DNA from: a candidate division WOR-3 bacterium | Lineage (GTDB): Bacteria; Hydrothermota; Tepidihabitantia; Tepidihabitantales; Tepidihabitantaceae | NCBI GenBank assembly: GCA_965649295.1 | Contig: CBFGKH010000006.1 | Span: 123,639-187,638, forward strand | Reading direction: 5' to 3' | Length of the DNA stretch: 64,000 nt | Part shown: positions 2,234 to 64,000 of the stretch, one piece after another | How the letters are laid out: each line of letters begins with the position of its first letter | Numbering within the stretch: position 1 is the stretch's first letter | Notes under the pieces: model-generated | Told to the model about the DNA's origin: nothing | Database searches by the model: none | The model's input: only the letters and a program-made list of their open reading frames with translations | Position numbers and translations under genes: made by a program

Positions 2234-2794
2234 CTAGTGCAGCCGCTCCAGATACTTGCCGGTGGCGACGTCAATCCGAATGCGGTCGCCGTTCTTGATG
2301 AACTGCGGCACTAGCACTTCAAGTCCGTTCTCGATTGTCGCCGTCTTCGGTGCGGCATTGGGATCGCCGTGCAGGGCCGGCCCAGTTGCCGTCACCACCA
2401 CATCAACTGTCCGCGGCAGAACCGCATCCAGCGGCTCACTGCCCAAAAACTCAAACTGCAGTCGGCACCCGTCAGTCACAAACCGCTCGTAGTTGCCAAG
2501 CATCTGTCTCGGGATGGCGATATCCTCAAAAGTCTCGGGATGGAGAAAATGAAACGTATCGGCATCACGATAAGAGTAGTCCAGCCAGACCGTCTCCACC
2601 GCAATGTCCTCAACCTTGGCCTCCGGATGAAGGCGTTGTTCGGTCTGGGTGTGGGTGCGAAGATTGCGCAGCCGGACATGAACCGAACTCGGCAGCTTGG
2701 CCGTCCCGACCTTGAGCTCGGCGTGCAGCACCTTATACAGCTCGCCATCAATTCGGACACACATCCCATCGCGCAGGTCTGCTGCCTTAATCAT
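2234..2794 (-). CDS. efp: Elongation factor P family protein with a non-canonical loop
   Basis: 186 aa; AADLRDGMCVRIDGELYKV, RLRNLRT, VPQFIKNGDRIRIDVATGKYLER; loop reads KVGTAKLP instead of KPGKG. Confidence 0.85.
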   Translation of the reverse strand: MIKAADLRDGMCVRIDGELYKVLHAELKVGTAKLPSSVHVRLRNLRTHTQTEQRLHPEAKVEDIAVETVWLDYSYRDADTFHFLHPETFEDIAIPRQMLGNYERFVTDGCRLQFEFLGSEPLDAVLPRTVDVVVTATGPALHGDPNAAPKTATIENGLEVLVPQFIKNGDRIRIDVATGKYLERLH

Positions 2795-2977: not shown

Positions 2978-3280
2978 AACTTCTGCAAGACAATCGGTTA
3001 GGTAGAGCCACCAGTCCTCGAGACCCCCTCCCCGTGGACTGTCCCGGGAGTGGTCCCCAAAGCTACCCGCAACCCCGCTGGCCGCAGCACTCTCGTAGCC
3101 CTTCTCCACTGTCCTTGCCCGCGAGCCTCCAAACCGGCCTGCGCAGGCCCTTTCTATTGGGTGAGCCATAGTCCTTCGGGCAGCCCCTGCAACAGTGCCT
3201 CTGGACAAGCCTCGCCTTCCCCTCGCATCGGCCTTCTCGCCGCTCTCTGGCCACCTCCTAGGACTTACCCTTAGTAAGCG
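2978..3280 (-). repeat. 12-nt-periodic intergenic element, copy 1
   Basis: Plus-strand 12-mers from 3041 start gtc,gtc,acc,gct,act,ctt,cct,gcc,gcc,cct,gtg,cct,ccc,gcc,gcc,cct,ctt,ctc,cct,cct. The minus strand carries the shared core AGCTTTGGGGAC-CACTCCCGGGAC-AGT and the end motif CTAACCGATTGTCTTGCAGAAGTT. Confidence 0.7.
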
Positions 3281-3427
3281 CTCCGAGCAGCCCCTCGTTG
3301 CCCACTCACCAGACCGCCTCCTTGCGGTCCCAACCTTGGTTTGCCGAGAGCCGTTGTTCTCGGCTCACCTGGTTACTGGCCCTCTGGTTTTTGACTTCGC
3401 GGCCCGACCCTCCTATCATTGCCAGTT

Positions 3428-26433: not shown

Positions 26434-26550
26434 GGTTGCGACGCTAGATTATGGCCAAAGACCGTTCCGAGTGACCATGAAAGAGTTGCTCTCCTGGGCT
26501 TCTGCCCAGGAGGGTTGCGACGCTAGATTATGGCCAAAGACCGTTCCGAG
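26434..26550 (+). repeat. 38-bp perfect direct repeat (2 copies) around a 41-nt hairpin-containing spacer
   Basis: GGTTGCGACGCTAGATTATGGCCAAAGACCGTTCCGAG at 26434-26471 and 26513-26550. Confidence 0.9.
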
Positions 26551-26557
26551 AGGCACT

Positions 26558-27043
26558 GTGAATACCAAAGAGCGTCTGGTCCGACTTGCCGCGATTGCGG
26601 TGCTGACCGCCATCTTCCTCGGTGCCTGTGCGCCGGGCAATGCCCGCTGGTCAACCGAAACCGGCCGCCCGGCCAACTTCTGGGCCGGTCTCTGGCACGG
26701 CCTGATAGTCGTTGTCACCTTCATCGTCAGCCTCTTCACCAAGGAAGTGAAGATCTACGAGACGAACAATGTCGGCTGGGCCTACAACCTCGGTTTTCTC
26801 CTCGGCGCAATGGTCTCCTTGGGCGGCGGTGCCCGCTCGGCCTGCCACCGGCGACGGCGCGAACCGGACTGGGAGCGCATTGGCGAAAAGATCGCCGGCG
26901 CGGTTCGGGCTCAGGTCCTGCGCGACGAGTTCAAGCCCAAGGCCAGTCCTGACCAGCGCTCCGGCGCTGACGACTGGGACGAGTTCAGCCGCCGCATTGA
27001 GGACTGCATCCGCACCGAGTTCAAAAAGAAGTGGGATGACTAG
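26558..27043 (+). CDS. Membrane lipoprotein
   Basis: Lipobox LGAC; PANFWAGLWHG...IYETNNVGWAYNLGFLLG motif. Confidence 0.75.
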   Translation: MNTKERLVRLAAIAVLTAIFLGACAPGNARWSTETGRPANFWAGLWHGLIVVVTFIVSLFTKEVKIYETNNVGWAYNLGFLLGAMVSLGGGARSACHRRRREPDWERIGEKIAGAVRAQVLRDEFKPKASPDQRSGADDWDEFSRRIEDCIRTEFKKKWDD

Positions 27044-28286
27044 CATGGCTGGCAGCAAGTTTCGCCGTCGGCGGTCATTCTGCTCCCCGTGGTCAGCCCT
27101 CTGGACTATCGCCGCTGCTTTCGGCCTGCTGTTCGCCCCGGCTCGCGCTGCCCGCTTTCTTGGCGAGCAGTCCTACACCCTGCCCGCCAATGAGACCCGC
27201 ATCGGCGACTTCTACTTTGGCGGCACGATGCTCCGCATCGAGGGCCGCCTTGACGGCTCCTGTCTAGCCGCTGCCCAGTCTATCACCATCGCTGGCCCGG
27301 TCTCCCGCAACCTCTTCCTCGCTGCCCAGACAGTTGACGTCTCCGGTGCTGCCGGCGGCGATGTTGCCTGTCTGGCAGCGACAGTCAACTTCACTGGCCG
27401 CACTCCCGCTGCCTTGCGCGTCGGCGCCGGTTCGGTCTATGTTGACGGCGCTGTTGGCCAGGACCTGCTGGCGGGTTGCGGCAATCTGACAATCGCCAAA
27501 AACTCCGAAATCAAGGGCGACCTTTTGGCAGGCTGTCGGTCACTGGAGATCGCCGGCACAATCCGCGGCGACGTCCGCGCCGTGGCCAGAGAGATCACCA
27601 TCGCCGGCACAATTGACGGCGACGTCGAGGTGACGGTCGCTGACCGGCTGACTCTGGGGCCAGACGCCCGGGTTTACGGCAACCTGCGCTACCGTTCGAG
27701 CAAGAAGCTCGACCTCGGCAACCCCGACCTCGTGTTCGGCAATATCGAACACATCCGGCTCGAATCGCCCCGTGACGTCGATGACATCCGCAGCCTGCGG
27801 CCGCGGCCGAGCATGTTTGTCACCTTCCTGCTGCCGCTCACCCTCTTCTCAATTCTCGGCGCCTTGGTCGTTGGCTTTCTGCTCATCGCCATCTGGCAGC
27901 ACGTCATCGCCCAAGCGCTCGAACGCTCAATAAACCACTGGGTGCGCACGTTCGGCTTTGGCCTCATCGGCTTTCTGATTGGGCCAATGAGCATCATTAT
28001 CGGCCTTGCCCTGATTATCACCATTCCGGCCGCACTGATTGCCGGTGTCGCCTATCTTGTCTTTCTCTATGTCGGCAAGGTACTGGCCGGCATGTTCCTC
28101 GGCAAGCTCCTCTTTCGCATCTTTGGCGCACCCGATGTCTCGCTCTGGGCCGCCGCGCCGCTGGGCATCGTGATTGTCTGGGCCCTCTGCGCCATCCCTT
28201 ACGTCGGCATGGTCATCTGGCTCGCAGCCATCGCCTTGGGCTTCGGTGTCATCGCCGAACTTATCGGCATGTCCCGCCAGCCCTGA
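27036..28286 (+). CDS. Bactofilin-like beta-solenoid protein with a multi-pass C-terminal membrane domain
   Basis: Repeated I-x-G-x-x-x-G-D/N units followed by several TM helices ending IPYVG. Confidence 0.75.
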   Translation: MTSMAGSKFRRRRSFCSPWSALWTIAAAFGLLFAPARAARFLGEQSYTLPANETRIGDFYFGGTMLRIEGRLDGSCLAAAQSITIAGPVSRNLFLAAQTVDVSGAAGGDVACLAATVNFTGRTPAALRVGAGSVYVDGAVGQDLLAGCGNLTIAKNSEIKGDLLAGCRSLEIAGTIRGDVRAVAREITIAGTIDGDVEVTVADRLTLGPDARVYGNLRYRSSKKLDLGNPDLVFGNIEHIRLESPRDVDDIRSLRPRPSMFVTFLLPLTLFSILGALVVGFLLIAIWQHVIAQALERSINHWVRTFGFGLIGFLIGPMSIIIGLALIITIPAALIAGVAYLVFLYVGKVLAGMFLGKLLFRIFGAPDVSLWAAAPLGIVIVWALCAIPYVGMVIWLAAIALGFGVIAELIGMSRQP

Positions 28287-28480: not shown

Positions 28481-28809
28481 AGACTAGCCGGTATCGGCTG
28501 AAGCCTATCCTGCCAGCCTGTTGCGAAGAAATCGGCCAGGACTCTCGATGGCAGCCTCTCTAGGACAGCTACCGGGAGCTGCGCTGGCCTCTCTGCTAGG
28601 CCTCGCGCAAACTCAGCCCGAAGCTCTGCCGCCGGCATTCCCGGAAACCGGTCTAGTGGCACCATCGTCAGCAGCAGCGGCAACTGGACCAAGAAGCGAG
28701 ACACTGACCGCCTCGCTGAGGTGCTCGACAGGAGCTGGGGAGACCATTCCGGGGACAGTAGAGTGGGAGTGGGTCGTATCGAGTCTAGCCGATTGACTGC
28801 TCAGAAGTT
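28481..28809 (+). repeat. 12-nt-periodic intergenic element, copy 2
   Basis: About 24 consecutive 12-mers nearly all ending R-R-S; core AGCTGGGGAGAC-CATTCCGGGGAC-AGTAGAGTGGGA; end motif CTAGCCGATTGACTGCTCAGAAGTT. Confidence 0.7.
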
Positions 28810-28996
28810 AGGCCTCGCGACCGCCGGCAACAGCCGACACCACCGATTCTCTCTGCTCCGTTTGGCCATTCAGGCAGCATAACAATAATAGGGCCGCGCT
28901 CGGGCCACTACCCGCTCGCCGCCGAAATCCAGGCCAACCTCGCTATATCGCTCAGGCCCAGGCCGGTTCCGGCTCCCAGCCGATTGCCGGCACCGC

Positions 28997-39281: not shown

Positions 39282-42200
39282 ATGATGCGACAGATGTCCT
39301 TGCTGACTGCCATTATCCTTGTGGGCCTGGCAGCAGCCCAGACAGGTGTTGACCTTAGCCAGGCCGGCTATCTCCCCGCTGGCACCGAAATAGTCGAACT
39401 CCGTACTGCTGACGCCCGCCACTACAGTAATGGCGACGGCACAATAACCGCCGTCATCGAGGCGCTCAATCCCGGCGGCCCGAACCCGCAGCCTTTCGAT
39501 GTCACCACGCTCAGCTCCGGCTATACCTGTTTCATCGAGAAGATGACGGTTCTTTGGATAACCTATTACTCCCGCACGACCGGTGATTTCCACGTCGGCT
39601 ACTATACTGAAAGCGGCGGCACCATTCAGGAACGGGGCATGGCTGAATGGCAGCTTGGCTCGATCCCGGACAATGCCACTGTCAGCTCGGTTTCGTGCTC
39701 AACACGCTGCTTCAACTCCGGTTACAACTGGCCGACATCAGTGCCGCTGTATGAGATGACGAACCGCCCATCAACGACCCCAAATGACAACCCTGGCAAC
39801 ACGACGTTGTTCAATGATGCCGGTGACGGCGTGCAATATGCGACCTACACTGGGTTTGCTAACGACATCTGGCTACACGCAACCCTGAACGGCGCTGCCC
39901 CGCTTGTCCAGTCCCGCCTCACCGGAGGTGACTGGTTCGCCCTCGGCTACTCCTACACCGGCTCTGGTTCGGCCTACGAGGCCGGTTTCTACGGTGCTTG
40001 GGGAAACTATGCGCCCAAGCTCCGAGTCACCTACACCGTTCCGGCCACTCATGATGTCGGCGTGACCCAGATTCTTGCCCCAACCGGCACAGTTGATTCT
40101 GGTGCTCAGGTCACGCCCTCCTGTATCGTCCAGAACTACACAAGCAGCTCCGCGAGCTACATTGTGCGGCTCAAGGTCGGTCCCAATGGCAGCTACTACA
40201 ACGGTACCGCCTCGGTTACTAACCATCCGGGCAACTCAAGCCTCACAGTAACCGGCTTCTCGCCACCAATGTATGCCAACTGGCCGCGCAACACTGCCAT
40301 CGCTGTCACCTGCTCAACCGAGCTTACCGGCGACGCCAACAACAATAACGACAAAGCTACTACCAGCGTCCAGACTCGTGTCCGTGATGTCCAGCCGACA
40401 ATCTGGTACCAACCTCCCACAAACGTTGACTCCGGTGTAACCGTCACGCCGTCGGTGCGTGTCCAAAACAACGGCACAGTGCTGGCAACTTTCAATGTCC
40501 GGTTCTGGACAAGCGACGGCTTCTCCAGTACCAAGACCGTGACCAATCTCTCGGCCAATGGCGGCCAGGACATTGTTGACTTTGACCCCTGGACAATCAC
40601 CACCCGCGGCACAGTCGCCTGCACCTGCGCCACCCTGCTCAGCGACGATATGATTCGGGCCAACGACAGCATCAGCCGCAACGTGAGCGTTGCCGTGCGT
40701 GACGTCCGGGCAGTGGCAATCACCGCACCGGTCGCAGTTGACTCGGGTGTGCCGGTAACGCCCGAGGCAACGGTCCAGAACCTGGGCACGGCAGCAGCAA
40801 CCTTCCCAGTGCGCCTGTTCGTGGATGGCGTGCCGCACGGCAGCGACAAGTGGGTGAACAATCTCGCGCCCGGCCTGCCGCCAGTGGCCGTGACTTTTGA
40901 CGAATGGACTCCGAACCGTCACGGCAGCTTTGTCCTGCGCTGCTCGACTATGCTCGCCAACGATATGGTCCCAATCAATGACACAGTCTCGCGCACCGTG
41001 TCGGCAATGGTGCGGGACGTGCGGCCAATGCGCATCAACGTGCCGGCAGCCGAAATTGACTCTGGCCCGCCGCTGCTACCGAATGTGACGGTTGAGAACG
41101 TCGGCCCCAACCCATCCGGCCCGTTTGATGTCAGACTGACCATCGGCGCGTGGTCCGACCTCTATCACCTCGACAACCTTGCGCCCGGCGAGACTGCCCG
41201 TATCGGATTCCACTCCTGGCAGCCGCAGCGCGGGACTTGGCCGATTGAGCTTGTCACTCTCCTTGCTGGCGACGCCAACCCCGGCAATGACACGATTCGT
41301 TCCTCGGTCACGGTAGCTGTCCGCGACATCGGCGTCGGCTCAATACTGGCACCGGCTGGCAACGTCCGTCGCGGCACAGTCATAACTCCCCGCATTGCCA
41401 TTACAAACTACGGCAACCAGCCAGCCCTGGCCAACGCCGAACTGGTGATCAAGGACGAGTTTGGGACGGTCCTGCATACCGCCCAGGCGCGAGATGTCGC
41501 GGTCCCGGTTGCCGGTCTGGATAACCTGCCGCTTGAACCCGACTGGCCAGCGACCAATCTTGGCCGATTCCAGGCTGTCGCCAGAACCGTCTATGGCGAT
41601 GACATGCATCCCGAGAACGATACCGACAGCACCTACTTCGACGTTGTTGCCGGCAGCACTGACATTGGTGTCCAGCGAATTTGGTCGCCAGCCGGAACGA
41701 TTGACACTGGTACCACCGTTGTGCCAACCGTCTGGATTTACAATCCTGGCGAGCTGACTGCTGATGGCGACGCATTCTTCACCATAACCCACGCCAGCGA
41801 AACTGTATATTCAGCCACCGCCGCGATTGTCGGGCTCGCGCCGGGTGAATCAACCGAAATCAGCTTTGACGGCTGGCCCGGCCCCCACCCTGTCGGCAGC
41901 TACGTTGGTCGCTGCTCAGTGGCGCTCGCCGGTGACGAGAATCCTGCCAACGACACCCTGAGCCGGCCGTTTACCGTTGTTGCTCGCACCAACTGGCCGA
42001 GTGGCTGGCAGGAGGTGAGTAACCTGCCGGCTCCACCCTCCAACCGGCAGGTCAAGGACGGTGGCTGGATTGCAGGCCCGGCTGCCAATGGCCTGCTCTA
42101 CGCAATCAAGGGCAATAAGGTGCGTGACTTCTATGCCTACGACCCGATTGCCGATAGCTGGACCCGCAAGGCCGATTTCGGTTCTTCCAGCAGCCGGCTG

Positions 42201-43220
42201 CCCGGCAAGGGCGGTGCGGCGATTGCTGACGGTGGCCGCTACATCTATGCGGTCAAGGGCAACAACAGCCTTGAGTTCTACCGCTACGACGTGACCACTG
42301 ATAGCTGGCAGGCATTGCGCGAGGTCCCGCCCGGCAACCACAAGATCAAGGCTGGCGCCGACCTCGCCTATGTGAACTACGGTGACACCGGCTATGTCTA
42401 TCTCCTCAAAGGCTACCGCAACGAGTTCTACCGCTACAACACCGTAAGCGGCGAGTGGCAGACCGAAACCCGGGCTCCGGACCGGGCCAGCCCTAAGTAC
42501 GACAAAGGTTCATTCCTTGTCGGCGACGGCACCGGTGTGCTCTATGTCCATCAGGCCAAGTTCCACCGGCTCTACCGTTACGACGTCGCCACCCGCGCCT
42601 GGAGTGCCGATACCTTGCGGGGCATGCCGTTCGTCTCCCGTGTCTTCAACCGCACCCGCCAGTCCAAAGACGGCGGCTGCGCCGCCTGGTCCAACGGCAT
42701 CATCTATGCGCTCAAGGGCAACAACACCCAGGAGTACTACCGCTACTTCCCAGCCCATGACTCCTGGCAGGAACTTGACACAATGCCGCAATGGGGCCGG
42801 CTCACCCAACGCAAGCGGAAGGTCAAGTCCGGTGCCGATATCACCAGCTACGAGCCAGGCGTTATCTTTGCCCTCAAGGGCAACAAGACCAACGAATGCT
42901 GGCGCTGGAAAGACTGGCCAACCGCCTACTCGCTATCGCCCCAGCGCGACGGCATTGCCACCAGCTATTTGGCTGGCGACTATCAGTTGACGATTACCCC
43001 CAATCCGCTGCGCACTGGCTTCCTCTGCCTGACCACCGGCCCGCTCTATGACCGTGCTACGCTCTCTGTCTTCGATCCGCTTGGTCGCCGCGTCCTCACT
43101 CGGCCGCTTACACGCTCGTCCGCTCAACTCGACCTGCGTTCCCTGCCGAGCGGTGTCTATCTCCTCCGCATCGATCTCGGCAGCAGCCGGTTCACCCGCA
43201 AACTGGTAATCGAGCACTAA
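39282..43220 (+). CDS. Large surface protein: DNRLRE-like domain, about 6 CARDB-like Ig repeats, Kelch-like propeller, T9SS-like CTD
   Basis: Repeats of DVxxxxIxAP...V.N.G...NDT; KGN.T.EFYRY blades; PNP...DPLGRRV...LPSGVYL. Confidence 0.85.
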   Translation: MMRQMSLLTAIILVGLAAAQTGVDLSQAGYLPAGTEIVELRTADARHYSNGDGTITAVIEALNPGGPNPQPFDVTTLSSGYTCFIEKMTVLWITYYSRTTGDFHVGYYTESGGTIQERGMAEWQLGSIPDNATVSSVSCSTRCFNSGYNWPTSVPLYEMTNRPSTTPNDNPGNTTLFNDAGDGVQYATYTGFANDIWLHATLNGAAPLVQSRLTGGDWFALGYSYTGSGSAYEAGFYGAWGNYAPKLRVTYTVPATHDVGVTQILAPTGTVDSGAQVTPSCIVQNYTSSSASYIVRLKVGPNGSYYNGTASVTNHPGNSSLTVTGFSPPMYANWPRNTAIAVTCSTELTGDANNNNDKATTSVQTRVRDVQPTIWYQPPTNVDSGVTVTPSVRVQNNGTVLATFNVRFWTSDGFSSTKTVTNLSANGGQDIVDFDPWTITTRGTVACTCATLLSDDMIRANDSISRNVSVAVRDVRAVAITAPVAVDSGVPVTPEATVQNLGTAAATFPVRLFVDGVPHGSDKWVNNLAPGLPPVAVTFDEWTPNRHGSFVLRCSTMLANDMVPINDTVSRTVSAMVRDVRPMRINVPAAEIDSGPPLLPNVTVENVGPNPSGPFDVRLTIGAWSDLYHLDNLAPGETARIGFHSWQPQRGTWPIELVTLLAGDANPGNDTIRSSVTVAVRDIGVGSILAPAGNVRRGTVITPRIAITNYGNQPALANAELVIKDEFGTVLHTAQARDVAVPVAGLDNLPLEPDWPATNLGRFQAVARTVYGDDMHPENDTDSTYFDVVAGSTDIGVQRIWSPAGTIDTGTTVVPTVWIYNPGELTADGDAFFTITHASETVYSATAAIVGLAPGESTEISFDGWPGPHPVGSYVGRCSVALAGDENPANDTLSRPFTVVARTNWPSGWQEVSNLPAPPSNRQVKDGGWIAGPAANGLLYAIKGNKVRDFYAYDPIADSWTRKADFGSSSSRLPGKGGAAIADGGRYIYAVKGNNSLEFYRYDVTTDSWQALREVPPGNHKIKAGADLAYVNYGDTGYVYLLKGYRNEFYRYNTVSGEWQTETRAPDRASPKYDKGSFLVGDGTGVLYVHQAKFHRLYRYDVATRAWSADTLRGMPFVSRVFNRTRQSKDGGCAAWSNGIIYALKGNNTQEYYRYFPAHDSWQELDTMPQWGRLTQRKRKVKSGADITSYEPGVIFALKGNKTNECWRWKDWPTAYSLSPQRDGIATSYLAGDYQLTITPNPLRTGFLCLTTGPLYDRATLSVFDPLGRRVLTRPLTRSSAQLDLRSLPSGVYLLRIDLGSSRFTRKLVIEH

Positions 43221-48050: not shown

Positions 48051-50657
48051 ATGTCCAAAGGGTTCTTAGTTGCCATCTGCGGTCTGCTCGCTGCCAGTGC
48101 CTTTGCTGGCACTGATATTGACCTATGGGGAAAACCAAGCCCCAGCCATCCGCCGCGTTTCTCTGCCGCTGACGGAAACTGGTTTGGCGAGTTCTTGGTT
48201 GACACCGCCGTTGTCTGGGCACCAGGCCAGGGCACAATGCCAGCAGTTGCCTGGGGTGGCGGCAACTGGCTAGCGGTCTGGCACGACAATGTTCGGTCAG
48301 CAACCGGCACGGTCTATGCTGCCCGCGTCACGCCGGGGGGCGGGCTCCTTGACTCGGCGCCCATCTTCCTCGCCAATGGTGCCACCAACCCGGCAGTCGC
48401 CTTTGACGGCACCAACTTCCTCGTCGTCTGGGAAAAGGCAACCGGCACCAATCAGTACGACATCTATGGGGCCCGAATCAGCCCAACCGGCGCGGTGGTT
48501 GACACTGGCGGCGGCTTCCCGATTGTCGAGAATCCGACCAGCTCACAGTCATTTCCGGCCGTCAGTTTTGGCGGTGGTAGCTTCCTCGTTGTCTGGGAAG
48601 ACGACCGCAACACGGCAACAACCGGCAGCGACATCTATGGCCGGCTGGTAACACCTGCCGGCACTGTCGGACCGGAGTTTGTCGTCGCCAACTGGCTCCG
48701 CGACCAAACCCGACCCCGCGTGGCCTACGGCGACACTATCTTCTGCGTGGCCTGGCAGGACCAGCGCACTGGCCGGCCAGCACCGTTTGCCGGCCGCGTC
48801 ACCCGCTCCGGCGTCCTCCTTGACATCTACGGTATCCGGCTCACCGACAACAACTCGCAGCAGATTGGCCCGGCAGTCGCGTTCGGCGGCGGCAACTTTC
48901 TGGTTGCCTGGGCGCGGTATGACTCGGCTGCCCAGGTGAACCGTCTTCGCGGCACCAGGGTCACACCCGCCGGCGCTGTGCTCGACTCCGCCGGCTTGGT
49001 GCTGGCGATGAGCACCACCGGTGAATGGGGCCCGGCAATTGACTTTGACGGCACTAACTTCCTCATCGCCTGGATGAGCCGACCGATGAGCGGCTCCGAT
49101 GTCTGTGCCTCACGGGTCACAGCTCAGGGCGAACTGATTGACACCGTGGCGATTGAGGTTGGCCGTGCCCCGAACGTCCAGGAGTTTCCGGCCCTGGCCT
49201 TTTCCGGCAGCAGCTATCTTGTCCTCTGGTCCGACATGCGCAGCCCGTCCTATGCGGTGGCAATCTACGGCTCGCGCGTCACAACCGGTGGCTTGCCTCT
49301 TGACTCGGCCGGCATCCGCATCTCCTGGGGCGCCAATGCCCAGGGCATTCCGGCCGCGGCATCGGACGGCACGAATTACCTGGTTGTCTGGCAGGACTAT
49401 CGTTCCGACGGTGAGGACTCCGACATCTACGGCATCAGGCTTGACTCGCTCGGCCGGCAACTGGAGCCGACCGCCTTTCCGATTGTCACCCGCCGCGGCT
49501 ACCAAGGCGAGGCCCAGGTCGCCTTTGACGGCACCAACTGGCTTGTCGTCTGGCAGGACAGCCGAACCGCTGGCTCAGCCATCTACGCTGCCCGGGTCTC
49601 GCGGGCCGGCACGGTGCTTGACCCTGACGGCCAAGAGCTGTTCCGAACTGCCGGCGACTATCTGCGACCAGCAGTCGCCTACAACGGCACTAACTATCTT
49701 ATCGCCTGGGGTGACTACGCCACTGGCGGCCCGCCCAATATCCGCTACGGCCGGGTGCGGCCCGACCTGACCGTTCTCGACTCCGGCGGCATCCTCGTTC
49801 CCTACGACACCATCACCGTCGCCCGCTCTTATTGCAGTATCGGCTCGGACGGCACCAACTGGCTACTATGCTGGACCGACGGTCACGACCGCAACTTCTC
49901 TGACGTCTATGCCACCCGCATCGGCCCGAACGGCACCGCGCTCGACTCGGCCGGCTTCCCGGTCAGTCAAGCCCTTTTCTACCAGTATTGCCCGGCTGTT
50001 TGCTTCGACGGCACCAACTATCTGGTCGCCTGGACCGACCGCCGCTCCCAGCAGGATACAGCTATCTATGCGGCCCGCGTCTCGCCCACTGGCACTGTTC
50101 TGGAACCCAACGGCATCCCCGTCAGCTCTGGCGCCGACTTCCTGACCCGGGCAACGAGCCTTGTCTGGAACGGCACCGAATGGGTGCTCGGCTGGGGTCG
50201 CCGGGGCCTGATTCGCGGTGCCCGATTGCAGCCCAGCGGCGCGGTTATTGACACCTTCACGATTATCCGCTGGGGTCAGGCCTACTACCCGGGCTTTGCT
50301 GCCCGCAGCCGTGGCCAGGTCTTGCTCTGCTACACTGGCTGGGCTGAGGAATACCGCGGCCGCCACATCGGCGTCGCCCGCATCTGGGGCAAGTTCGGGC
50401 CATTCCCTGGTGTTGCCGAGGAACCCTTAGCAGCCGAGCTAGCCAGCAGCATCAGGGTCCTGCCCAATCCCACCGCCGGCCCGGCCCTCATCCGCACTGC
50501 CCAAGCCCGGCGCGTCGCGGTCTACGATGCTCTTGGCCGACTGGTGCGAAGGCTCGAACTGCAACAAGGCCAGGCTCAGCTCACCGGCCTTCAACCGGGT
50601 GTCTATCTGCTGTTAGCAGAACCAGGCGCGGCCCGAGCCAAGCTGATCGTCCGCTAG
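48051..50657 (+). CDS. Secreted repeat protein (AFDGTNYLVxWxD repeats) with a T9SS-like CTD
   Basis: About 11 repeats of P.VAFDGTN(F/Y)LV.W...IYxxRV...G.VLD; PNP...YDALGRLV...GVYL. Confidence 0.85.
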   Translation: MSKGFLVAICGLLAASAFAGTDIDLWGKPSPSHPPRFSAADGNWFGEFLVDTAVVWAPGQGTMPAVAWGGGNWLAVWHDNVRSATGTVYAARVTPGGGLLDSAPIFLANGATNPAVAFDGTNFLVVWEKATGTNQYDIYGARISPTGAVVDTGGGFPIVENPTSSQSFPAVSFGGGSFLVVWEDDRNTATTGSDIYGRLVTPAGTVGPEFVVANWLRDQTRPRVAYGDTIFCVAWQDQRTGRPAPFAGRVTRSGVLLDIYGIRLTDNNSQQIGPAVAFGGGNFLVAWARYDSAAQVNRLRGTRVTPAGAVLDSAGLVLAMSTTGEWGPAIDFDGTNFLIAWMSRPMSGSDVCASRVTAQGELIDTVAIEVGRAPNVQEFPALAFSGSSYLVLWSDMRSPSYAVAIYGSRVTTGGLPLDSAGIRISWGANAQGIPAAASDGTNYLVVWQDYRSDGEDSDIYGIRLDSLGRQLEPTAFPIVTRRGYQGEAQVAFDGTNWLVVWQDSRTAGSAIYAARVSRAGTVLDPDGQELFRTAGDYLRPAVAYNGTNYLIAWGDYATGGPPNIRYGRVRPDLTVLDSGGILVPYDTITVARSYCSIGSDGTNWLLCWTDGHDRNFSDVYATRIGPNGTALDSAGFPVSQALFYQYCPAVCFDGTNYLVAWTDRRSQQDTAIYAARVSPTGTVLEPNGIPVSSGADFLTRATSLVWNGTEWVLGWGRRGLIRGARLQPSGAVIDTFTIIRWGQAYYPGFAARSRGQVLLCYTGWAEEYRGRHIGVARIWGKFGPFPGVAEEPLAAELASSIRVLPNPTAGPALIRTAQARRVAVYDALGRLVRRLELQQGQAQLTGLQPGVYLLLAEPGAARAKLIVR

Positions 50658-59181: not shown

Positions 59182-60558
59182 TCACCTCCCACCGATAACG
59201 ACGTTCTTGATGCGGATGTGCGGCGCGCCCATCCCCACTGGCAGCGGGCCTTGGCCGTTCTTACCGCAGCCGCCAAGTCCGCCAAACATCACCAGATCAT
59301 CACCAATCATGTCAATGTTACGCAGCGTCTCGAAGATATTGCCGGCCAAAGTCACATCCCGCACCATCTTTGTCTTCCGGCCGCCCTCAATCAGATAGGC
59401 GTACTGCGACGAGAAGGTGAACGCCTCCAGCTCGGTCATCCCGCCGCGCGAGCCGACAACGTAGAGCCCGTGCTCGGTCGCATCAAACATCTCCTCAATA
59501 TTGTGCTGCCGCGGCTCGACAAACGTATTCGCCATCCGCACAATCGGCGCAAACCGATAGCTCACTGCCCGGGCATTACCCGACAGCGGCTCCTGCATCT
59601 GCTGCGCCGTCTCGCGGTTGTGCAGATGCCCGGCAATCCGACCCTGCCGGATGAGGTCGGTGCGTCGGGCCGGCACGCCTTCGTCGTCATAACGGTAGCT
59701 GCCCCGCTCGCCCGGCAGCGTCGCATCATCGGCAATCGTCAGCTCCTCCGTGCCATACTGCGTGCCAATCTTCATCAGCTCCCGCAGCCGCTCATTACTG
59801 TAGATGTGGTCGGCCTCGCTCAGATGGCCAAACGCTTCGTGACAGAAAACCCCGCCGAGCAGCGGATCAATAATCACCGTGTATTTGCCCGCCTGCACCG
59901 GCTCGGCCCGCAGCAAATCGAGCGCAATCTTCGCAATCCGCTCCACCAGCGGCTCGCGATTCTGCACCGACTCAAACCCCTGGGTCTTGCCAAACGAGTC
60001 ACTATAAGACTGAATGTTCGTGCCGTCCCGGGCCGTCGCCGAGCAGGCAAAACCGGTATAGCTGAACTCCTGCTCGACAAACCGATTGTCGGAAGAAAGA
60101 AAACTGACCCGCTTGTGCAAGTCGGCATACGCCGACAAAGTCGTCACGATGCCCGGCGTCTGCAGCACGATATCGTTGTAATGGCGAATCAGGTCGTGCT
60201 TGGCTTCAAGCGGCACTTGGCGCGGATCGTCTTTCGGGTCGAGCCGAACCGTCTCATCCAGCGGTTCGAGCTTGGGCAGCTCCACCGCCCGCGCCGGCAG
60301 CGCCCGCACCTCGCGACAGAGGTCCCGCCCGAGCTCGCGCAAAGAATCATCAACCCGATTGAACGTCGCCACCAGCCAGTTGCCCCGCGAAAACGCCCGC
60401 AGACAGCCGCCCAGCTCAAACGTCCGGCTGATATCGTCCAGGTCCCGACCGCGATAGACTACCCTTGACGACTCCGACTCTTCGACCCGGATATCCGCAT
60501 AGTCCGCGTCCATACCGTCAATCACTGTCCGCAACAGCGGCTTCAGGCTCTTATCCAT
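59182..60558 (-). CDS. tldD: TldD family metalloprotease
   Basis: HEAFGHLSEAD, YDDEG, PIVRMANT, GGCGK. Confidence 0.9.
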   Translation of the reverse strand: MDKSLKPLLRTVIDGMDADYADIRVEESESSRVVYRGRDLDDISRTFELGGCLRAFSRGNWLVATFNRVDDSLRELGRDLCREVRALPARAVELPKLEPLDETVRLDPKDDPRQVPLEAKHDLIRHYNDIVLQTPGIVTTLSAYADLHKRVSFLSSDNRFVEQEFSYTGFACSATARDGTNIQSYSDSFGKTQGFESVQNREPLVERIAKIALDLLRAEPVQAGKYTVIIDPLLGGVFCHEAFGHLSEADHIYSNERLRELMKIGTQYGTEELTIADDATLPGERGSYRYDDEGVPARRTDLIRQGRIAGHLHNRETAQQMQEPLSGNARAVSYRFAPIVRMANTFVEPRQHNIEEMFDATEHGLYVVGSRGGMTELEAFTFSSQYAYLIEGGRKTKMVRDVTLAGNIFETLRNIDMIGDDLVMFGGLGGCGKNGQGPLPVGMGAPHIRIKNVVIGGR

Positions 60559-60618
60559 GCCAACTCCAGTTTGTCACCTGACCAATAGCCTAGGCCGTCC
60601 TGAATCGCTGTCAATAAC

Positions 60619-60898
60619 AATGGCACCAGGAGCCAGCCCAACCGACAGCCGCACCCAATCGCCAGCTCAGCCCATCGCTCTCGGCCCGAGCCATAGAGCG
60701 GCCCCGACCCTCGCATTTGGCCACAGCGGGATTCAGAGAGCACCGCAAGCCCATCCCGTGACAACTCCAGTCACCAGCCCCAAAACTCAAGCTAAGACCA
60801 GCCCAGAAAGAGCTAGTGAGACCATCCCCGAGACAGTAGAGTGGAGGGACGGCCCAAGAGGGCTATCGGGCTGTAGATTATGGACTTAGCCACAGAAA
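60619..60898 (+). repeat. 12-nt-periodic intergenic element, copy 3
   Basis: ccatcccgtgac aactccagtcac cagccccaaaac tcaagctaagac cagcccagaaag agctagtgagac catccccgagac agtagagtggag. Confidence 0.75.
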
Positions 60899-61019
60899 CC
60901 CCGTCCTCATCTCTCATCATCCTTCCCGACCACCATTTTCCCTGCTCAATCTTTCGCCTTCTCGCGTATAACCCGATAGAGCGAAAGAACCGGCCTCAGC
61001 ACAAACCTAGGAGGGAAAG

Positions 61020-61400
61020 ATGAACCGCCGTGAAGAGTGGCTAGAACAGAAGACAGTCCGCGCCAGCCGACGCTACCTGCGCTCAATAACCCGCGGCCAG
61101 ACCAGCACCCGCCGCGACCAGGCAATCGCCGCCCAAGTCGCCAAGTTCGCCGCTGCGACTCGGGCTGCGCTAGAGCTGGGCGAAAAGGTCAAAGAAGTCA
61201 TCAGCCGCCACGAGACACCGGTAACCCACCTCGCCCTCTACCGCACCTTCGCCCTCCACCTCGGTCGCCTCCGCCCCCGCTACACCGACGACGACTTCGC
61301 CCTGCTCTGCATCGCCGCCATCAACCGCTGGACAAGCTACGGCCTCAGCCCTGCAGCCCTGCGCCACCTCTGCCGCGAGGTATTCGAAGTAAGGGTCTAG
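61020..61400 (+). CDS. Small basic helical protein resembling the SIRV2/Adnaviria major capsid protein
   Basis: RBS AGGAGGG; Arg-rich N-terminal helix; F-x11-EKVKEVI...ALYRTFALHLGR...WTSYGLSPAALRHL pattern. Confidence 0.6.
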   Translation: MNRREEWLEQKTVRASRRYLRSITRGQTSTRRDQAIAAQVAKFAAATRAALELGEKVKEVISRHETPVTHLALYRTFALHLGRLRPRYTDDDFALLCIAAINRWTSYGLSPAALRHLCREVFEVRV

Positions 61401-61617: not shown

Positions 61618-62079
61618 CTAGGTGCGCTTCTTGCTGGGAGCCGGGGAAGCGACACGCCTCTTCTCCCTGCTCTTCGCGCCCGGACGTGCGGCCGCCCGCG
61701 ATCGCACTGCCCCAGCGCTCGTGTTGCCACTCTCCCTGATGACTTCATCGGCGAAGTGCGCGACCTCGCGAAGTCGCACCCACCAGTGATAATAGTCTCC
61801 ATCCTCGAGCCATTCCCCTAAGAGAAGAACCTCATTCTCAGACCTGTAAAGAGTGCAATTGGCGTTTCCCGTGGTTCTGTCGGAGAGGCATACCCAGGAG
61901 CCGGCATACTGCGCAGCTCCGACCTTCGTCAGCTTCACGTCGTAGCGATCGCCATGGTACGCTACGCTGAGAGCTAGCTCGCGACTGCCGCGCATGATAC
62001 ACCGGTGGACCTCGCCATGAAAAGTGTCGCCGTAGGCAGCCCACACCATGCGACTGGAACCCTCTAGCTTCGTGTTCAC
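61618..62079 (-). CDS. Hypothetical protein
   Basis: RBS AAGGAGGAG before GTG; beta-rich, Trp-rich 153 aa. Confidence 0.6.
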   Translation of the reverse strand: MNTKLEGSSRMVWAAYGDTFHGEVHRCIMRGSRELALSVAYHGDRYDVKLTKVGAAQYAGSWVCLSDRTTGNANCTLYRSENEVLLLGEWLEDGDYYHWWVRLREVAHFADEVIRESGNTSAGAVRSRAAARPGAKSREKRRVASPAPSKKRT

Positions 62080-62211
62080 GTGACTCCTCCTTCAGCATCG
62101 CTAGCTGAATTCATATTCACCCCAGACCAGTGGCGGGGCGGGTTGAATGCTCTTCTCCACCGGGCGAGCGTGTCAAAGATGAGCCTCTCAGCGGTGGAGT
62201 TGTCATTTTCT

Positions 62212-62490
62212 TCATGACCGCGCGCTCGACGACATTGTCGCCGGCAAATGCTCCCGGGCACTCGCCAGTGGGATCGCAGGCGCCCCATCCCTACTAGAAG
62301 TCAGGCTGTTGCGGAGAACATTGAGCCGCTTGGCAGTCAGCTTGACTTCAGCCTCTTCCGCCAGTTCAGCAATCTGCTCCGCGAGCCGGTTGAAGTCGGT
62401 GTGCGGACCTGCGTCCAGCGATGCGGCCACCCTGTCGTAGAAACCGAAGATAAGCCGTCCACCGCCTGCGCTCGCCGGATTGCTCAACAA
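62212..62490 (-). CDS. Hypothetical protein or fragment
   Basis: Helical stretch FNRLAEQIAELAEEAEVKL; possible promoter TGGACA-N16-TAAAAT just upstream. Confidence 0.35.
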   Translation of the reverse strand: MLSNPASAGGGRLIFGFYDRVAASLDAGPHTDFNRLAEQIAELAEEAEVKLTAKRLNVLRNSLTSSRDGAPAIPLASAREHLPATMSSSARS

Positions 62491-62776: not shown

Positions 62777-64000
62777 TTGGCAAAACTAGAAGACCTCAAA
62801 CGCGGCGCACGGATAACGGGCGTCCTGCCTGGAGTCACAGTTACCGTGATTGACGTGCGCTGGCACGGCTCCGACGTTGTAGAACTGACGTACAAGGATG
62901 AGACCGGAGCGCTCGGCAACCTGCTCCTCTATCGAGAAAGCGAACCCACGCTAACAATCGAGCAGCCCGGGCGATCCTGGAGCTTCGATGGTGACGGCGC
63001 GCTGCTGCGGCTGGTATCCGAGGCCTGCCGCATCAGACTCGCCCACCTGTTCGACCCGCTGTTTGCCGTCCACACTTCGCTGGTCGAGCCGCTGCCGCAC
63101 CAGATAACTGCCGTCTATGAGGAGATGTTGCCCCGCCAGCCGCTCCGTTTCCTGCTGGCCGACGACCCGGGTTCCGGCAAGACGATAATGGCCGGCCTAT
63201 TGATGCGCGAGCTCATCATTCGCGGCGACCTCAAACGCTGCCTGATATGCTGTCCGGGCAACCTCGCCACCCAGTGGCAGGATGAGCTGCTGCAACGTTT
63301 CAACCTCCAGTTCGACATCATCTCCAGCGCGACCATCGAGGAATCTGCCTCCGGCAATCCCTACCAGGAGAAGCCGCTGGTCATCAGCCGGCTCGACCAT
63401 ATGAGCCGCAACGAACGCATCCAGAAGATGTTGCGGCAAACCGAGTGGGACCTAGTCGTCATTGATGAGGCACACAAGTTATCGGCCCACTACTACGGCT
63501 ACGAAATCAAGGAAACGATGCGCTACAAACTGGGCCGGCTCCTCGGCTCGCCCGAGCGCACCCGGCATTTGCTCTTCCTCACCGCGACCCCACACAGTGG
63601 CAGGGAAGAAGACTTTCAGCTATTCATGGCGCTGCTCGACGCCGACCGGTTCGAGGGCCGGTTCCGCGACGGCGTTCACGTCACCGACACGCGTGACCTG
63701 ATGCGTCGGCTGGTCAAGGAGCAGCTTGTGAAGCTTGACGGCACGCCGCTCTTTCCTGAGCGTCGGGCCTACACCGTGAAGTACGAGCTGTCACCCGCCG
63801 AGGCTCAGCTCTACGCCCATGTCACCGACTACGTGCGCCACGAGATGAACCGGGCTGACCGGCTCGCCGCCGAAGGCGAGGGCCGGCGCGGAAACCGCGT
63901 CGGCTTTGCCCTGACCACCCTGCAACGTCGGCTTGCCTCGTCACCCGAGGCGATATACAAATCGCTGCAGCGCCGCCGCGAGCGACTAGAGAAACGGCTC
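62777..64000 (+). CDS. SNF2/RapA-like helicase, probably defence-associated (partial, runs off the window end)
   Basis: Read manually from TTG 62777: AKLEDLKRGARITGV...RIRLAHLFDP...PLPHQITAVY...LLADDPGSGKT...VVIDEAHK...LTATPHSG. Confidence 0.9.
   Translation, partial: MAKLEDLKRGARITGVLPGVTVTVIDVRWHGSDVVELTYKDETGALGNLLLYRESEPTLTIEQPGRSWSFDGDGALLRLVSEACRIRLAHLFDPLFAVHTSLVEPLPHQITAVYEEMLPRQPLRFLLADDPGSGKTIMAGLLMRELIIRGDLKRCLICCPGNLATQWQDELLQRFNLQFDIISSATIEESASGNPYQEKPLVISRLDHMSRNERIQKMLRQTEWDLVVIDEAHKLSAHYYGYEIKETMRYKLGRLLGSPERTRHLLFLTATPHSGREEDFQLFMALLDADRFEGRFRDGVHVTDTRDLMRRLVKEQLVKLDGTPLFPERRAYTVKYELSPAEAQLYAHVTDYVRHEMNRADRLAAEGEGRRGNRVGFALTTLQRRLASSPEAIYKSLQRRRERLEKRL

What the first reader, a model, noticed from the sequence alone, without database searches (positions are those of the whole stretch)
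60619..61400. Candidate new system: 12-bp-phased DNA elements plus an MCP-like protein whose fold binds 12 bp per dimer
Seen: a ~280-bp element with 12-nt phasing ends about 120 bp upstream of the MCP-like gene, on the same strand, and two relatives lie elsewhere in the window. Established: SIRV2-type MCP dimers each cover 12 bp of A-form DNA, and rudivirus genomes show 12-bp indels. Inference: the elements could be nucleation or packaging tracks for this protein (a nucleoid organiser, a GTA-like filament or a satellite-like mobile element), or relics of DNA that evolved inside such filaments. The matching 12-bp period and the physical linkage are the basis; function is unproven.
Basis: inference. 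Interest (0 to 1): 0.9.

Follow-up and report, generated by a model that had tools for sequence, protein, structure and literature searches.

The report
Phased 12-bp DNA tracks, capsid-like proteins

Summary
The element is real, but it is one of the weakest copies. A plain period-12 test of 60619-60900 is not significant (355 of 2000 shuffles). In the family's fixed phase, 14 of 23 units carry the conserved R-R-S triplet (P=2.5e-7). It is one of 65 intergenic elements in this 2.28 Mb genome. Each has about 23 head-to-tail 12-bp units, a conserved core made of two consensus units (GGGGACC, CGGGACA) and a conserved 3' part. They are non-coding, match no Rfam family and show no excess RNA folding.

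The 126-aa protein belongs to a family homologous to rudivirus coat proteins (profile E=2.8e-9 to SSRV1). The family occurs in 28 of 29 sampled genomes of this order and 0 of 121 elsewhere in the phylum.

The link is enriched but not the rule: 6 of 10 loci encoding capsid-like or related XRE-HTH proteins have a track just upstream (about 2% expected), including 4 of 5 HTH genes. Most tracks precede ordinary genes.

New here: the tracks are evenly spaced, none closer than 11 kb (0 of 5000 permutations).

The scan had already found this system on other pieces of this genome. Binding is unproven.

The parts
60560..60811 (+). Phased track of element e3: 21 head-to-tail 12-bp units. Each is a degenerate motif half (sARRSa) plus a variable half.
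   Evidence: Weight-matrix scan gives score 40.0 and 23 units including the core. Leave-one-out score 38.4; 14 of 23 units carry R-R-S in family phase, P=2.5e-7.
60812..60847 (+). Conserved core. It consists of two consensus units in phase (..GAGACC / ATCCCCGAGACA) followed by GTAGAGTGGAGG (3' subfamily B).
   Evidence: nhmmer hit at C6:184450-184485, E=2.1e-6. The stack of 34 copies shows its information content. The 16-mer occurs 33 times in this genome, 0 times in the control reading and 0-3 times in each of 60 relatives.
60863..60890 (+). Two-block motif CTATC-N17-CTTAGC, possibly a promoter.
   Evidence: Conserved block in the alignment of 34 copies. The loose form lies within 170 nt downstream of 23 of 66 tracks, against 1 of 66 upstream and 48 of 1752 gene upstream regions.
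60891..61019 (+). Leader-like part with the subfamily-B block ATTTTCCCTGCTCA and a GGAGGG ribosome-binding site at 61010-61015.
   Evidence: Sequence and alignment. No excess RNA folding: z=+0.81 for 60800-61019.
61020..61400 (+). Gene for a 126-aa all-helical protein, a divergent member of the bacterial family related to the SIRV2-type capsid protein.
   Evidence: ORF. In-genome family profile E=2.1e-36. Family profile against rudivirus coat proteins: E=2.8e-9 and 5.4e-7. Model pLDDT 92.2 with five helices. The top fold matches are SIRV and AFV1 coat proteins.
59182..60558 (-). Divergent PmbA/TldD metallopeptidase gene. Its start codon lies 2 nt from the far end of the track, so its promoter must lie inside the track.
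   Evidence: ORF, Pfam E=5.8e-60, context table.
3028..3327 (-). Relative e1: track 3040-3327 plus core 3028-3063, 3' subfamily A. It lies 246 nt upstream of efp (2234..2794, minus strand).
   Evidence: Raw period-12 power 4.03, the highest of the window. Weight-matrix score 53.5. nhmmer E=8.1e-8. efp by Pfam.
28482..28812 (+). Relative e2: track 28482-28757, core 28734-28768 and two-block motif 28785-28812. It lies between two convergent genes, a bactofilin-domain protein gene and a Rex-like repressor gene.
   Evidence: Weight-matrix score 68.1. nhmmer E=3e-7. ORFs, Pfam, motif.

Best explanation
Window 60560-60890 is one copy of a dispersed, DNA-level cis-element.

Anatomy (shown). About 21 degenerate 12-bp units lead, in strict register, into two consensus units (the core). 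These are followed by a conserved promoter-like block and, in about two thirds of copies, by a gene in the same orientation.

Proposed mechanism (inferred). The trans factors are an order-specific set of proteins with the SIRV2-type capsid fold and a related XRE-HTH family, one member of which is a fusion of the two. An HTH-bearing member recognises the core. Capsid-fold dimers then polymerise away from the promoter, one dimer per 12-bp unit. This wraps about 276 bp into a short nucleocapsid-like rod.

Proposed function (inferred). Because the roughly 65 copies are evenly spaced (11-54 kb apart) and lie before many ordinary genes, the rods more likely mark or insulate chromosomal sites (domain barriers or promoter control) than package DNA. 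The copy before the 126-aa gene would then give the system feedback on one of its own components.

Shown: the anatomy, the phase, the homology, the enrichment and the spacing. Inferred: binding, polarity of spreading and function.
For: 1. Strict phase without sequence conservation. In an ungapped stack of 34 copies anchored on the core, information sits only at unit positions 7-12 of every 12-bp unit from -252 to 0. The variable half carries about 0.1 bit.
2. The core is itself two in-phase consensus units, and the track units are degenerate versions of it.
3. Not coding: at most 7 of 34 copies are stop-free in any of the six frames. No Rfam family. No excess RNA folding (z=-0.49 and +0.81). 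The strand asymmetry is confined to the motif half.
4. The protein family is homologous to Adnaviria capsid proteins, and all seven best PDB matches are such proteins. Those proteins cover 12 bp per capsomer (PMC5517147, passages read).
5. Linkage in this genome: 6 of 10 loci for capsid-like or HTH proteins have a track directly upstream on the same strand. One of the six, the C5 cluster, is a weaker track (score 28.0). About 2% of genes have such a track (35 of 1761). Sources. Among the HTH genes the count is 4 of 5.
6. Linkage in other genomes: 3 of 20 capsid-like genes have empirical p<=0.01, and two of these three are HTH fusions. Upstream regions reach high period-12 power in 4 of 24 cases against 1 of 28 downstream regions. 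Strong tracks lie upstream in L011, L012 and L017.
7. Distribution: the family is in 28 of 29 sampled genomes of the order and 0 of 121 outside it. Strong tracks (power >=4) number 3-16 per 337-400 kb in four positive genomes, against 0 and 1 per 400 kb in the two outgroup genomes.
8. Even spacing: 50 within-contig distances have minimum 11.3 kb and CV 0.41. None of 5000 permutations over 321 long intergenic regions reaches this.
Against: - No binding data exist. The homodimer prediction gave no verdict (see Tried and rejected).
- Most tracks are not near system genes: 2 of 66 have a capsid-like gene within 700 bp downstream.
- Most capsid-like genes lack a track: 3 of 6 loci here, 17 of 20 and 20 of 24 elsewhere.
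- The units are asymmetric direct repeats, which a two-fold symmetric homodimer would not obviously read.
- One genome of the order (G052, 92% complete) shows track-like arrays but no capsid-like match.
- The phyletic co-occurrence amounts to one clade against its outgroups, with only two outgroup genomes scanned for tracks, so it is a single evolutionary event.
- The core 16-mer is nearly identical in 33 copies here but essentially missing in 60 relatives. Simple conservation of a binding site does not explain that.
- The weight matrix was trained on this family, and the gene calls come from my own crude gene finder.
Confidence: 0.5

Rival explanations
1. The tracks are iteron-like binding arrays for the XRE-HTH family alone, or for an unidentified factor. 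The stand-alone capsid-fold proteins do something else, and the 12-bp match to the viral footprint is coincidence.
For: The tightest linkage is with HTH genes: 4 of 5. The plain capsid-like genes of the conserved type (C8:7214, C2:102390, C4:8044) have no track. Only the C8:92925 fusion matches the capsid-like profile in hhalign (87%, E=4e-6), while the other four HTH proteins do not.
Against: One HTH family member is fused to a genuine capsid-like domain. Fusions in a second family of the order also sit behind tracks. The window's own stand-alone gene and the C5 cluster have tracks. From my general knowledge, not tested here: XRE-type HTH dimers normally read short palindromes, not 23 direct repeats.
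Confidence: 0.2
2. The elements are a selfish or recombination-driven repeat family, MITE- or REP-like. Their even spacing reflects target immunity or selection against nearby copies. System genes are simply frequent neighbours.
For: High copy number, strictly intergenic position. The core and 3' part are nearly identical within the genome but genus-specific: 33 copies here, 0-3 in each of 60 relatives. Two 3' subfamilies exist. Minimum spacing is 11 kb. From memory only: Mu, Tn7 and Tn3 show target immunity over kilobases.
Against: The variable half of the units is saturated between copies while the register is kept without indels. This argues for old copies under constraint, not recent transposition. 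I saw no transposase, but I did not search for terminal inverted repeats or target duplications. The enrichment before HTH and capsid-like genes recurs in other genomes with different unit consensus.
Confidence: 0.12
3. The track acts as RNA: a long 5' leader or non-coding RNA with a motif every 12 nt, bound by an RNA-binding protein or by Rho.
For: The element has a fixed polarity. In 23 of 33 cases the downstream gene has the same orientation. The core can be drawn as a short hairpin, by eye from the alignment.
Against: No Rfam match. No folding excess. Track composition is not G-poor: A .26, C .29, G .29, T .16. The conserved triplet is R-R-S rather than the YC dimers of rut sites (the rut motif is recalled, not tested). 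In 10 of 33 copies the element points at the 3' end of a convergent gene. In L011 a TATAAT-like box lies between the track and the gene. Expression could not be examined.
Confidence: 0.1
4. The period-12 signal at 60619-60900 is a chance or compositional effect.
For: The plain Fourier test is not significant: 355 of 2000 shuffles. TRF finds no period-12 array there.
Against: Leave-one-out family test. Independent core match. Shared 3' blocks.
Confidence: 0.01

Closest known systems
Nucleocapsids of Adnaviria (SIRV2 3J9X, SSRV1 6WQ0, AFV1 5W7G)
   Same: Homologous all-helical protein: profile E=2.8e-9 and 5.4e-7, and these are the top fold matches. The capsomer footprint is 12 bp (PMC5517147), equal to the unit length of the tracks. 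As recalled from the ICTV profile abstract, non-rudiviral adnavirians use two paralogous coat proteins, and this genome also has several paralogs.
   Different: The genes are chromosomal and conserved across a bacterial order, with 2-34 matches per genome, and have no relative on viral contigs. The candidate DNA target is a set of short, about 276-bp sequence-marked arrays at about 65 sites, not a whole linear genome. Some members are fused to an HTH domain. No virion genes were seen.
Centromere-like iteron arrays bound by filament-forming adaptors (ParR-parC, TubR-tubC); recalled from memory, not tested here
   Same: Tandem direct repeats in strict register that a small DNA-binding protein is thought to coat cooperatively. 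An array lies next to the gene of the binding protein.
   Different: About 65 dispersed, evenly spaced chromosomal arrays rather than one plasmid site. The units keep only half of their letters. I did not look for a partition NTPase. The protein fold is different.
Nucleation-and-spreading nucleoid proteins (ParB-parS, H-NS); recalled
   Same: A strong site (the core) next to weaker sites over which a protein could spread. Sites are dispersed over the chromosome.
   Different: Spreading here would be guided by phased weak sites of fixed number (mode 23-24 units) and fixed polarity.
Rho utilisation (rut) sites
   Different: Composition is not G-poor and the motif is purine-rich R-R-S. Exact register is kept over 250 nt. 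A conserved core and 3' part follow the track.

Membership tests
SIRV2-type (Adnaviria) major capsid protein family, Pfam PF12193 Sulf_coat_C | Sequence or profile similarity to the viral coat proteins | tested here: met
   A profile of 57 bacterial members matches 6wq0 (E=2.8e-9), 3j9x (5.4e-7), 6d5f (2.4e-4), 5w7g_A (3e-4), 3f2e (3.8e-4) and 5w7g_B (3.5e-3). PF12193 matches 4 of 8 in-genome members, best E=7.1e-5, below Pfam's own cut-off for single proteins. The window's member has no direct hit and joins through the in-genome profile, E=2.1e-36.
SIRV2-type (Adnaviria) major capsid protein family, Pfam PF12193 Sulf_coat_C | Fold: an N-terminal long helix plus a C-terminal helical bundle | tested here: met
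   Model pLDDT 92.2 with helices 3-24, 33-63, 68-87, 90-105 and 111-122. Foldseek ranks 3f2e (prob 0.99, TM 0.71), 3fbl (0.73), 5w7g_B (0.68) and 3j9x (0.64) at ranks 1, 2, 3 and 5. The E-values are weak, 0.6-2.8.
SIRV2-type (Adnaviria) major capsid protein family, Pfam PF12193 Sulf_coat_C | Dimers wrap 12 bp of A-form DNA each | not testable with these tools
   No protein-DNA prediction was available.
SIRV2-type (Adnaviria) major capsid protein family, Pfam PF12193 Sulf_coat_C | Encoded by a virus and forming virions | tested here: not met
   No relative among viral contigs with query A2. Present in 57 of 61 related genomes, in chromosomal contexts. In this window it is flanked by PmbA/TldD and helicase genes.
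Iteron or centromere-like protein-binding arrays | Tandem direct repeats in constant register | tested here: met
   Ungapped stack of 34 copies. Units per track range 20-30, with a mode of 23-24.
Iteron or centromere-like protein-binding arrays | The array lies next to the gene of its binding protein | tested here: inconclusive
   6 of 10 system loci have an array upstream, but 60 or so arrays lie elsewhere, and which protein binds is unknown.
Structured non-coding RNA or rut-type leader | Match to a known RNA family, or folding beyond shuffles | tested here: not met
   0 Rfam matches at gathering score. The best permissive match has E=0.92. Folding z=-0.49 and +0.81.
MITE- or REP-type mobile repeat | Copies similar over their whole length | tested here: not met
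   The variable half of the units carries about 0.1 bit across 34 copies, while the core and 3' blocks are conserved. Terminal inverted repeats and target duplications were not examined.

The most novel reading that the evidence does not exclude
A whole bacterial order has turned the coat protein of archaeal filamentous viruses (or its cellular ancestor) into a chromatin-like device. About 65 evenly spaced, sequence-programmed 276-bp tracks are each wrapped into a short A-form nucleocapsid-like rod. Each rod is nucleated at a two-unit core by HTH-capsid fusion proteins. Together the rods divide the chromosome into domains of about 28 kb and gate neighbouring promoters. If so, this would also be the first cellular relative of the Adnaviria capsid and a clue to the origin of that virus realm.
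Probability: 0.3. Interest if true: 0.95.

Novelty: categorically new. Interest (0 to 1): 0.85.

Why it matters
[quoted passage not shown] My literature searches found no bacterial homolog and no 12-bp phased chromosomal arrays.

If the reading holds, three things follow:
- It would add a new class of bacterial nucleoid or regulatory element, in which DNA geometry (a 12-bp register) is conserved rather than sequence.
- It would give a cellular counterpart for a viral capsid protein whose origin is unknown.
- It would provide a natural protein-DNA pair that forces B-DNA into an A-like form at programmed sites.

The even spacing makes a role in chromosome organisation directly testable.

Tried and rejected
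- Plain Fourier and autocorrelation of 60619-60900: not significant on their own.
- TRF: no period-12 call at the site.
- Coding reading of the 110-aa ORF 60557..60889 that overlies the track: rejected. The family has stops in all six frames and period-3 power there is low.
- Rfam, at gathering and permissive thresholds: nothing.
- Homodimer prediction of the 126-aa protein with alignment A3: no verdict. Score 0.36 against a mark of 0.42.
- Sequencing runs: no RNA holder listed.
- Two-block motif as a genome-wide promoter: the strict form is not over-represented against the reversed genome (23 vs 73 and 20 vs 65). However, 34 of its 43 hits are intergenic and 13 follow a track. The motif is absent upstream of the track-less capsid-like genes. 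No link to the ECF sigma gene in the C5 cluster (Pfam) could be shown.
- Replicating the even spacing in a second genome (G002, two 200-kb stretches, self-trained matrix): too weak to judge. Distances were 40, 25, 21 and 35 kb on one contig. On the other contig one distance was 6.8 kb, between hits barely above the null.
- More outgroup genomes for the track-density test, and DNA around HTH genes of other genomes, could not be fetched. The outgroup control therefore rests on two genomes, and the HTH-track link outside this genome rests on two fusions in G047.
- The search for related loci with the divergent alignment A1 failed because no stretch was conserved enough. The closer set A2 was used instead.
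- hhalign of the other four HTH proteins against the capsid-like profile: no match. Only the resemblance of the C4:31348 C-terminus to the fusion, seen by eye, suggests that it also carries the domain.

Full report
**1. The site.** Window 60559-61019 is the gap between a PmbA/TldD metallopeptidase gene (59182..60558, minus strand; Pfam E=5.8e-60) and a 126-aa ORF (61020..61400, plus strand) preceded by GGAGGG. Autocorrelation of 60619-60900 is raised at lags 12, 24 and 36 (0.341, 0.322, 0.341). The plain Fourier power at period 12 is only 1.07, and 355 of 2000 shuffles reach it. TRF reports no period-12 array there.

**2. The family.** The highest period-12 power in the window lies in two other intergenic gaps, near 2977 (4.03) and 28441 (3.47). 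All three gaps share a core of about 45 nt. nhmmer finds 35 copies of the core in the 2.28-Mb genome at E<=0.01. I stacked 34 of them on the core without gaps. Information content then appears only at unit positions 7-12 of each 12-nt unit (consensus sARRSa, with R-R-S strongest), from -252 to 0. The other six positions carry about 0.1 bit. The core continues the same register with two consensus units..GGGGACC and ACTCCCGGGACA.

A phase weight matrix finds 66 tracks, 65 after merging one double-strand call. At a score of 30 or more there are 680 real positions against 27 in the reversed genome. Tracks have 20-30 units, with a mode of 23-24. Overlap with predicted genes is at most 82 nt, and none at 49 of the 66 tracks. 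The gene calls come from my own simple codon-usage finder (1761 genes).

The copy in question spans C6:184198-184473, which is window 60560-60835, and scores 40.0. With a matrix trained without it, the score is 38.4. Five of 4.56 million null positions and 0 of 2000 shuffles reach that score. 14 of its 23 units carry R-R-S (P=2.5e-7). It is therefore a genuine but weak member.

**3. What the element is not.**
- It is not coding. In the best of six frames only 7 of 34 copies are free of stops. The 110-aa ORF over the track is therefore spurious.
- It matches no Rfam family.
- It does not fold better than shuffles: z=-0.49 for 60560-60850 and +0.81 for 60800-61019.
- It is not G-poor.

**4. The 3' part.** Two subfamilies follow the core. 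One has GTCCCCGGGATGGGG and later a palindrome CTGTGTACTTnAAAGTACACAG. The other, which includes this copy, has GTAGAGKGGAGG and later ATTTTCyCTGCxCA. Both carry a two-block motif yTAwC-N16-18-sTTAGs. Here it is CTATC-N17-CTTAGC at 60863-60890. A loose form lies within 170 nt downstream of 23 of 66 tracks, against 1 of 66 upstream and 48 of 1752 gene upstream regions. It may be a promoter, but I could not show this.

Among the 35 core-bearing copies, two lie at contig ends. Of the other 33, the next gene has the same orientation in 23 and is convergent in 10. The far end of a track often abuts the neighbouring gene. Here the PmbA/TldD start codon is 2 nt away.

**5. The protein.** The 126-aa protein has no Pfam hit of its own but has eight paralogous ORFs in the genome.
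- A profile of eight members matches the SIRV2 coat protein (E=1.2e-4) and the SSRV1 protein (2.2e-4).
- PF12193 matches 4 of the 8 members.
- A profile of 57 members from this and related genomes raises this to E=2.8e-9 (SSRV1, nearly full length) and 5.4e-7 (SIRV2). All seven best PDB sequences are Adnaviria coat proteins.
- The AlphaFold model (pLDDT 92.2, five helices) finds SIRV and AFV1 coat proteins at Foldseek ranks 1, 2, 3 and 5. TM-scores are 0.64-0.73 and the E-values are weak.

Homology is therefore established at the family level. The family occurs in 57 of 61 relatives. In a phylum sample it occurs in 28 of 29 genomes of the order and 0 of 121 outside it. No relative was found on viral contigs with query A2.

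**6. The link between tracks and genes.**

*In this genome.* Tracks lie directly upstream, on the same strand, of the window's gene (score 40.0), of the HTH-fused gene C8:92925 (66.5) and, more weakly (28.0), of the four-gene C5 cluster. That cluster also holds an ECF-type sigma gene. Three other capsid-like loci have none.

Searching with the HTH fusion revealed an XRE-HTH family of five genes. Four of them have a track directly upstream. Altogether 6 of 10 system loci have a track, while 35 of 1761 genes do. My rough binomial estimate for that is of the order of 1e-8.

*In other genomes.*
- Of 28 capsid-like matches in five genomes, 25 had enough upstream DNA and 20 had a genome-specific null. 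Three of the 20 reach empirical p<=0.01, and two of these three are HTH fusions.
- Of 29 relatives of the window's paralog, 24 had enough upstream DNA. Four reach power 3.5 or more, against 1 of 28 downstream regions.
- Three of 12 loci from another collection have strong tracks upstream, but two of them may be the same sequence.

The association is real but concerns a minority of capsid-like genes, and it is tightest for HTH-bearing genes.

**7. Genes behind the other tracks.** They look unrelated to each other. efp is confirmed by Pfam. The rest I named by reading the translations and did not test: Rho, two aminoacyl-tRNA synthetases, a LemA-like protein, an aminopeptidase and large secreted proteins. 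This argues against a narrow regulon.

When 65 sites are drawn at random among the 321 intergenic regions of 250 bp or more, the mean CV is 0.91 and the lowest is 0.59. On average 13.9 distances fall under 10 kb, and never fewer than 5. None of 5000 draws matches the observed values, and neither does uniform placement. Sub-threshold intergenic candidates fall inside the large gaps.

Two caveats apply. The genome is in 19 contigs, and two tracks sit at contig ends, so assembly breaks at repeats could hide a few short distances. A replicate in G002 was inconclusive.

**9. Between genomes.** The unit consensus differs by genome. Examples are CTGAGATTCACC in L017, CCGGnnnTSRYC in L011 and CCTCCATTAAAC in G038. 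The exact core 16-mer occurs 33 times here, 0 times in the control reading and 0-3 times in each of 60 relatives. The gene-proximal units in L017 still read GGGG(T)GAC(C), as read by eye.

Strong tracks (power 4 or more) number:
- 27 per 2278 kb in G000;
- 3, 13, 5 and 16 per 337-400 kb in four genomes that have the family;
- 2 per 240 kb in G052, a genome of the same order with no family match at 92% completeness, whose arrays look genuine;
- 1 (coding-like) and 0 per 400 kb in the two outgroup genomes.

This fits co-occurrence. However, it is one clade against two outgroups, and G052 is an unexplained exception.

**10. Reading.** The anatomy suggests DNA-level recognition by a polymer with a 12-bp axial repeat that nucleates at the core. 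The relevant features are a fixed register, a conserved half-unit, a strong two-unit end, fixed polarity and no RNA signal. The only proteins specifically tied to the tracks are the capsid-fold and HTH families. The viral homologs cover 12 bp per capsomer (PMC5517147, passages). Rudiviruses and lipothrixviruses show frequent 12-bp indels (PMC4390879, passage). I drop the virion, GTA and satellite variants. I add the HTH fusion as the likely nucleator and even spacing as a hint of a chromosome-level role.

Unexplained points: the asymmetric units, the genus-specific yet internally uniform cores, and the many system genes without tracks.

**11. Literature.** I found no paper describing bacterial homologs of this capsid fold or 12-bp phased chromosomal arrays. 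The search listings were examined, and only PMC5517147, PMC12282232 and PMC4390879 were opened, as passages. The scan itself had already reported this system from other pieces of the same genome. I treated those notes as leads and tested them as listed.

Noticed in passing
window 26434-26471 and 26513-26550: An exact 38-nt direct repeat (GGTTGCGACGCTAGATTATGGCC...) lies 220-335 nt upstream of a bactofilin-domain protein gene (26769..28286). Its TAGATTATGG is also present in element e3 at 60874-60883.
   Followed up: no
window 60556-60572: The start codon of the divergent PmbA/TldD gene lies 2 nt from the far end of the track, so its promoter must sit inside the phased units. Many other copies also abut their upstream neighbour, at -19 to about 100 nt.
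   Followed up: partly
G000 C5:141500-145800 (L003): Here four capsid-like ORFs stand in tandem. An ECF-type sigma factor gene (Sigma70_r2 and r4_2) lies between the third and the fourth. A weaker track lies in front, next to rplT.
   Followed up: partly
L067 7640-7900 (G052): This genome of the same order has no capsid-like match at 92% completeness. It still carries a convincing array of about 22 units with a 12-bp period (GGnATnTA...).
   Followed up: partly
3' parts of subfamily A copies, e.g. G000 C3:99095+130: A near-perfect palindrome, CTGTGTACTTnAAAGTACACAG, lies about 130 nt after the core in about 14 copies. It could be an operator or a hairpin of unknown role.
   Followed up: no
G000 C13:30130-30417: The small gene behind one track encodes two copies of a KLWAYIKKxKL-type segment. 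By eye it resembles a SWIB/MDM2 chromatin-associated domain. Not tested.
   Followed up: no
window 48239-50033 and 42090-42906: There are coding repeats of about 160 nt (10 copies) and about 150 nt (4 copies) inside large ORFs. They probably encode repeated beta-propeller or Kelch-like modules.
   Followed up: no
window 61618-62490 (minus strand) and 62777-64000: Two small ORFs without a significant Pfam family (153 and 92 aa; only an E=0.21 match for the first) lie directly downstream of the capsid-like gene. They are followed by an SNF2/ResIII helicase gene that runs off the window.
   Followed up: partly
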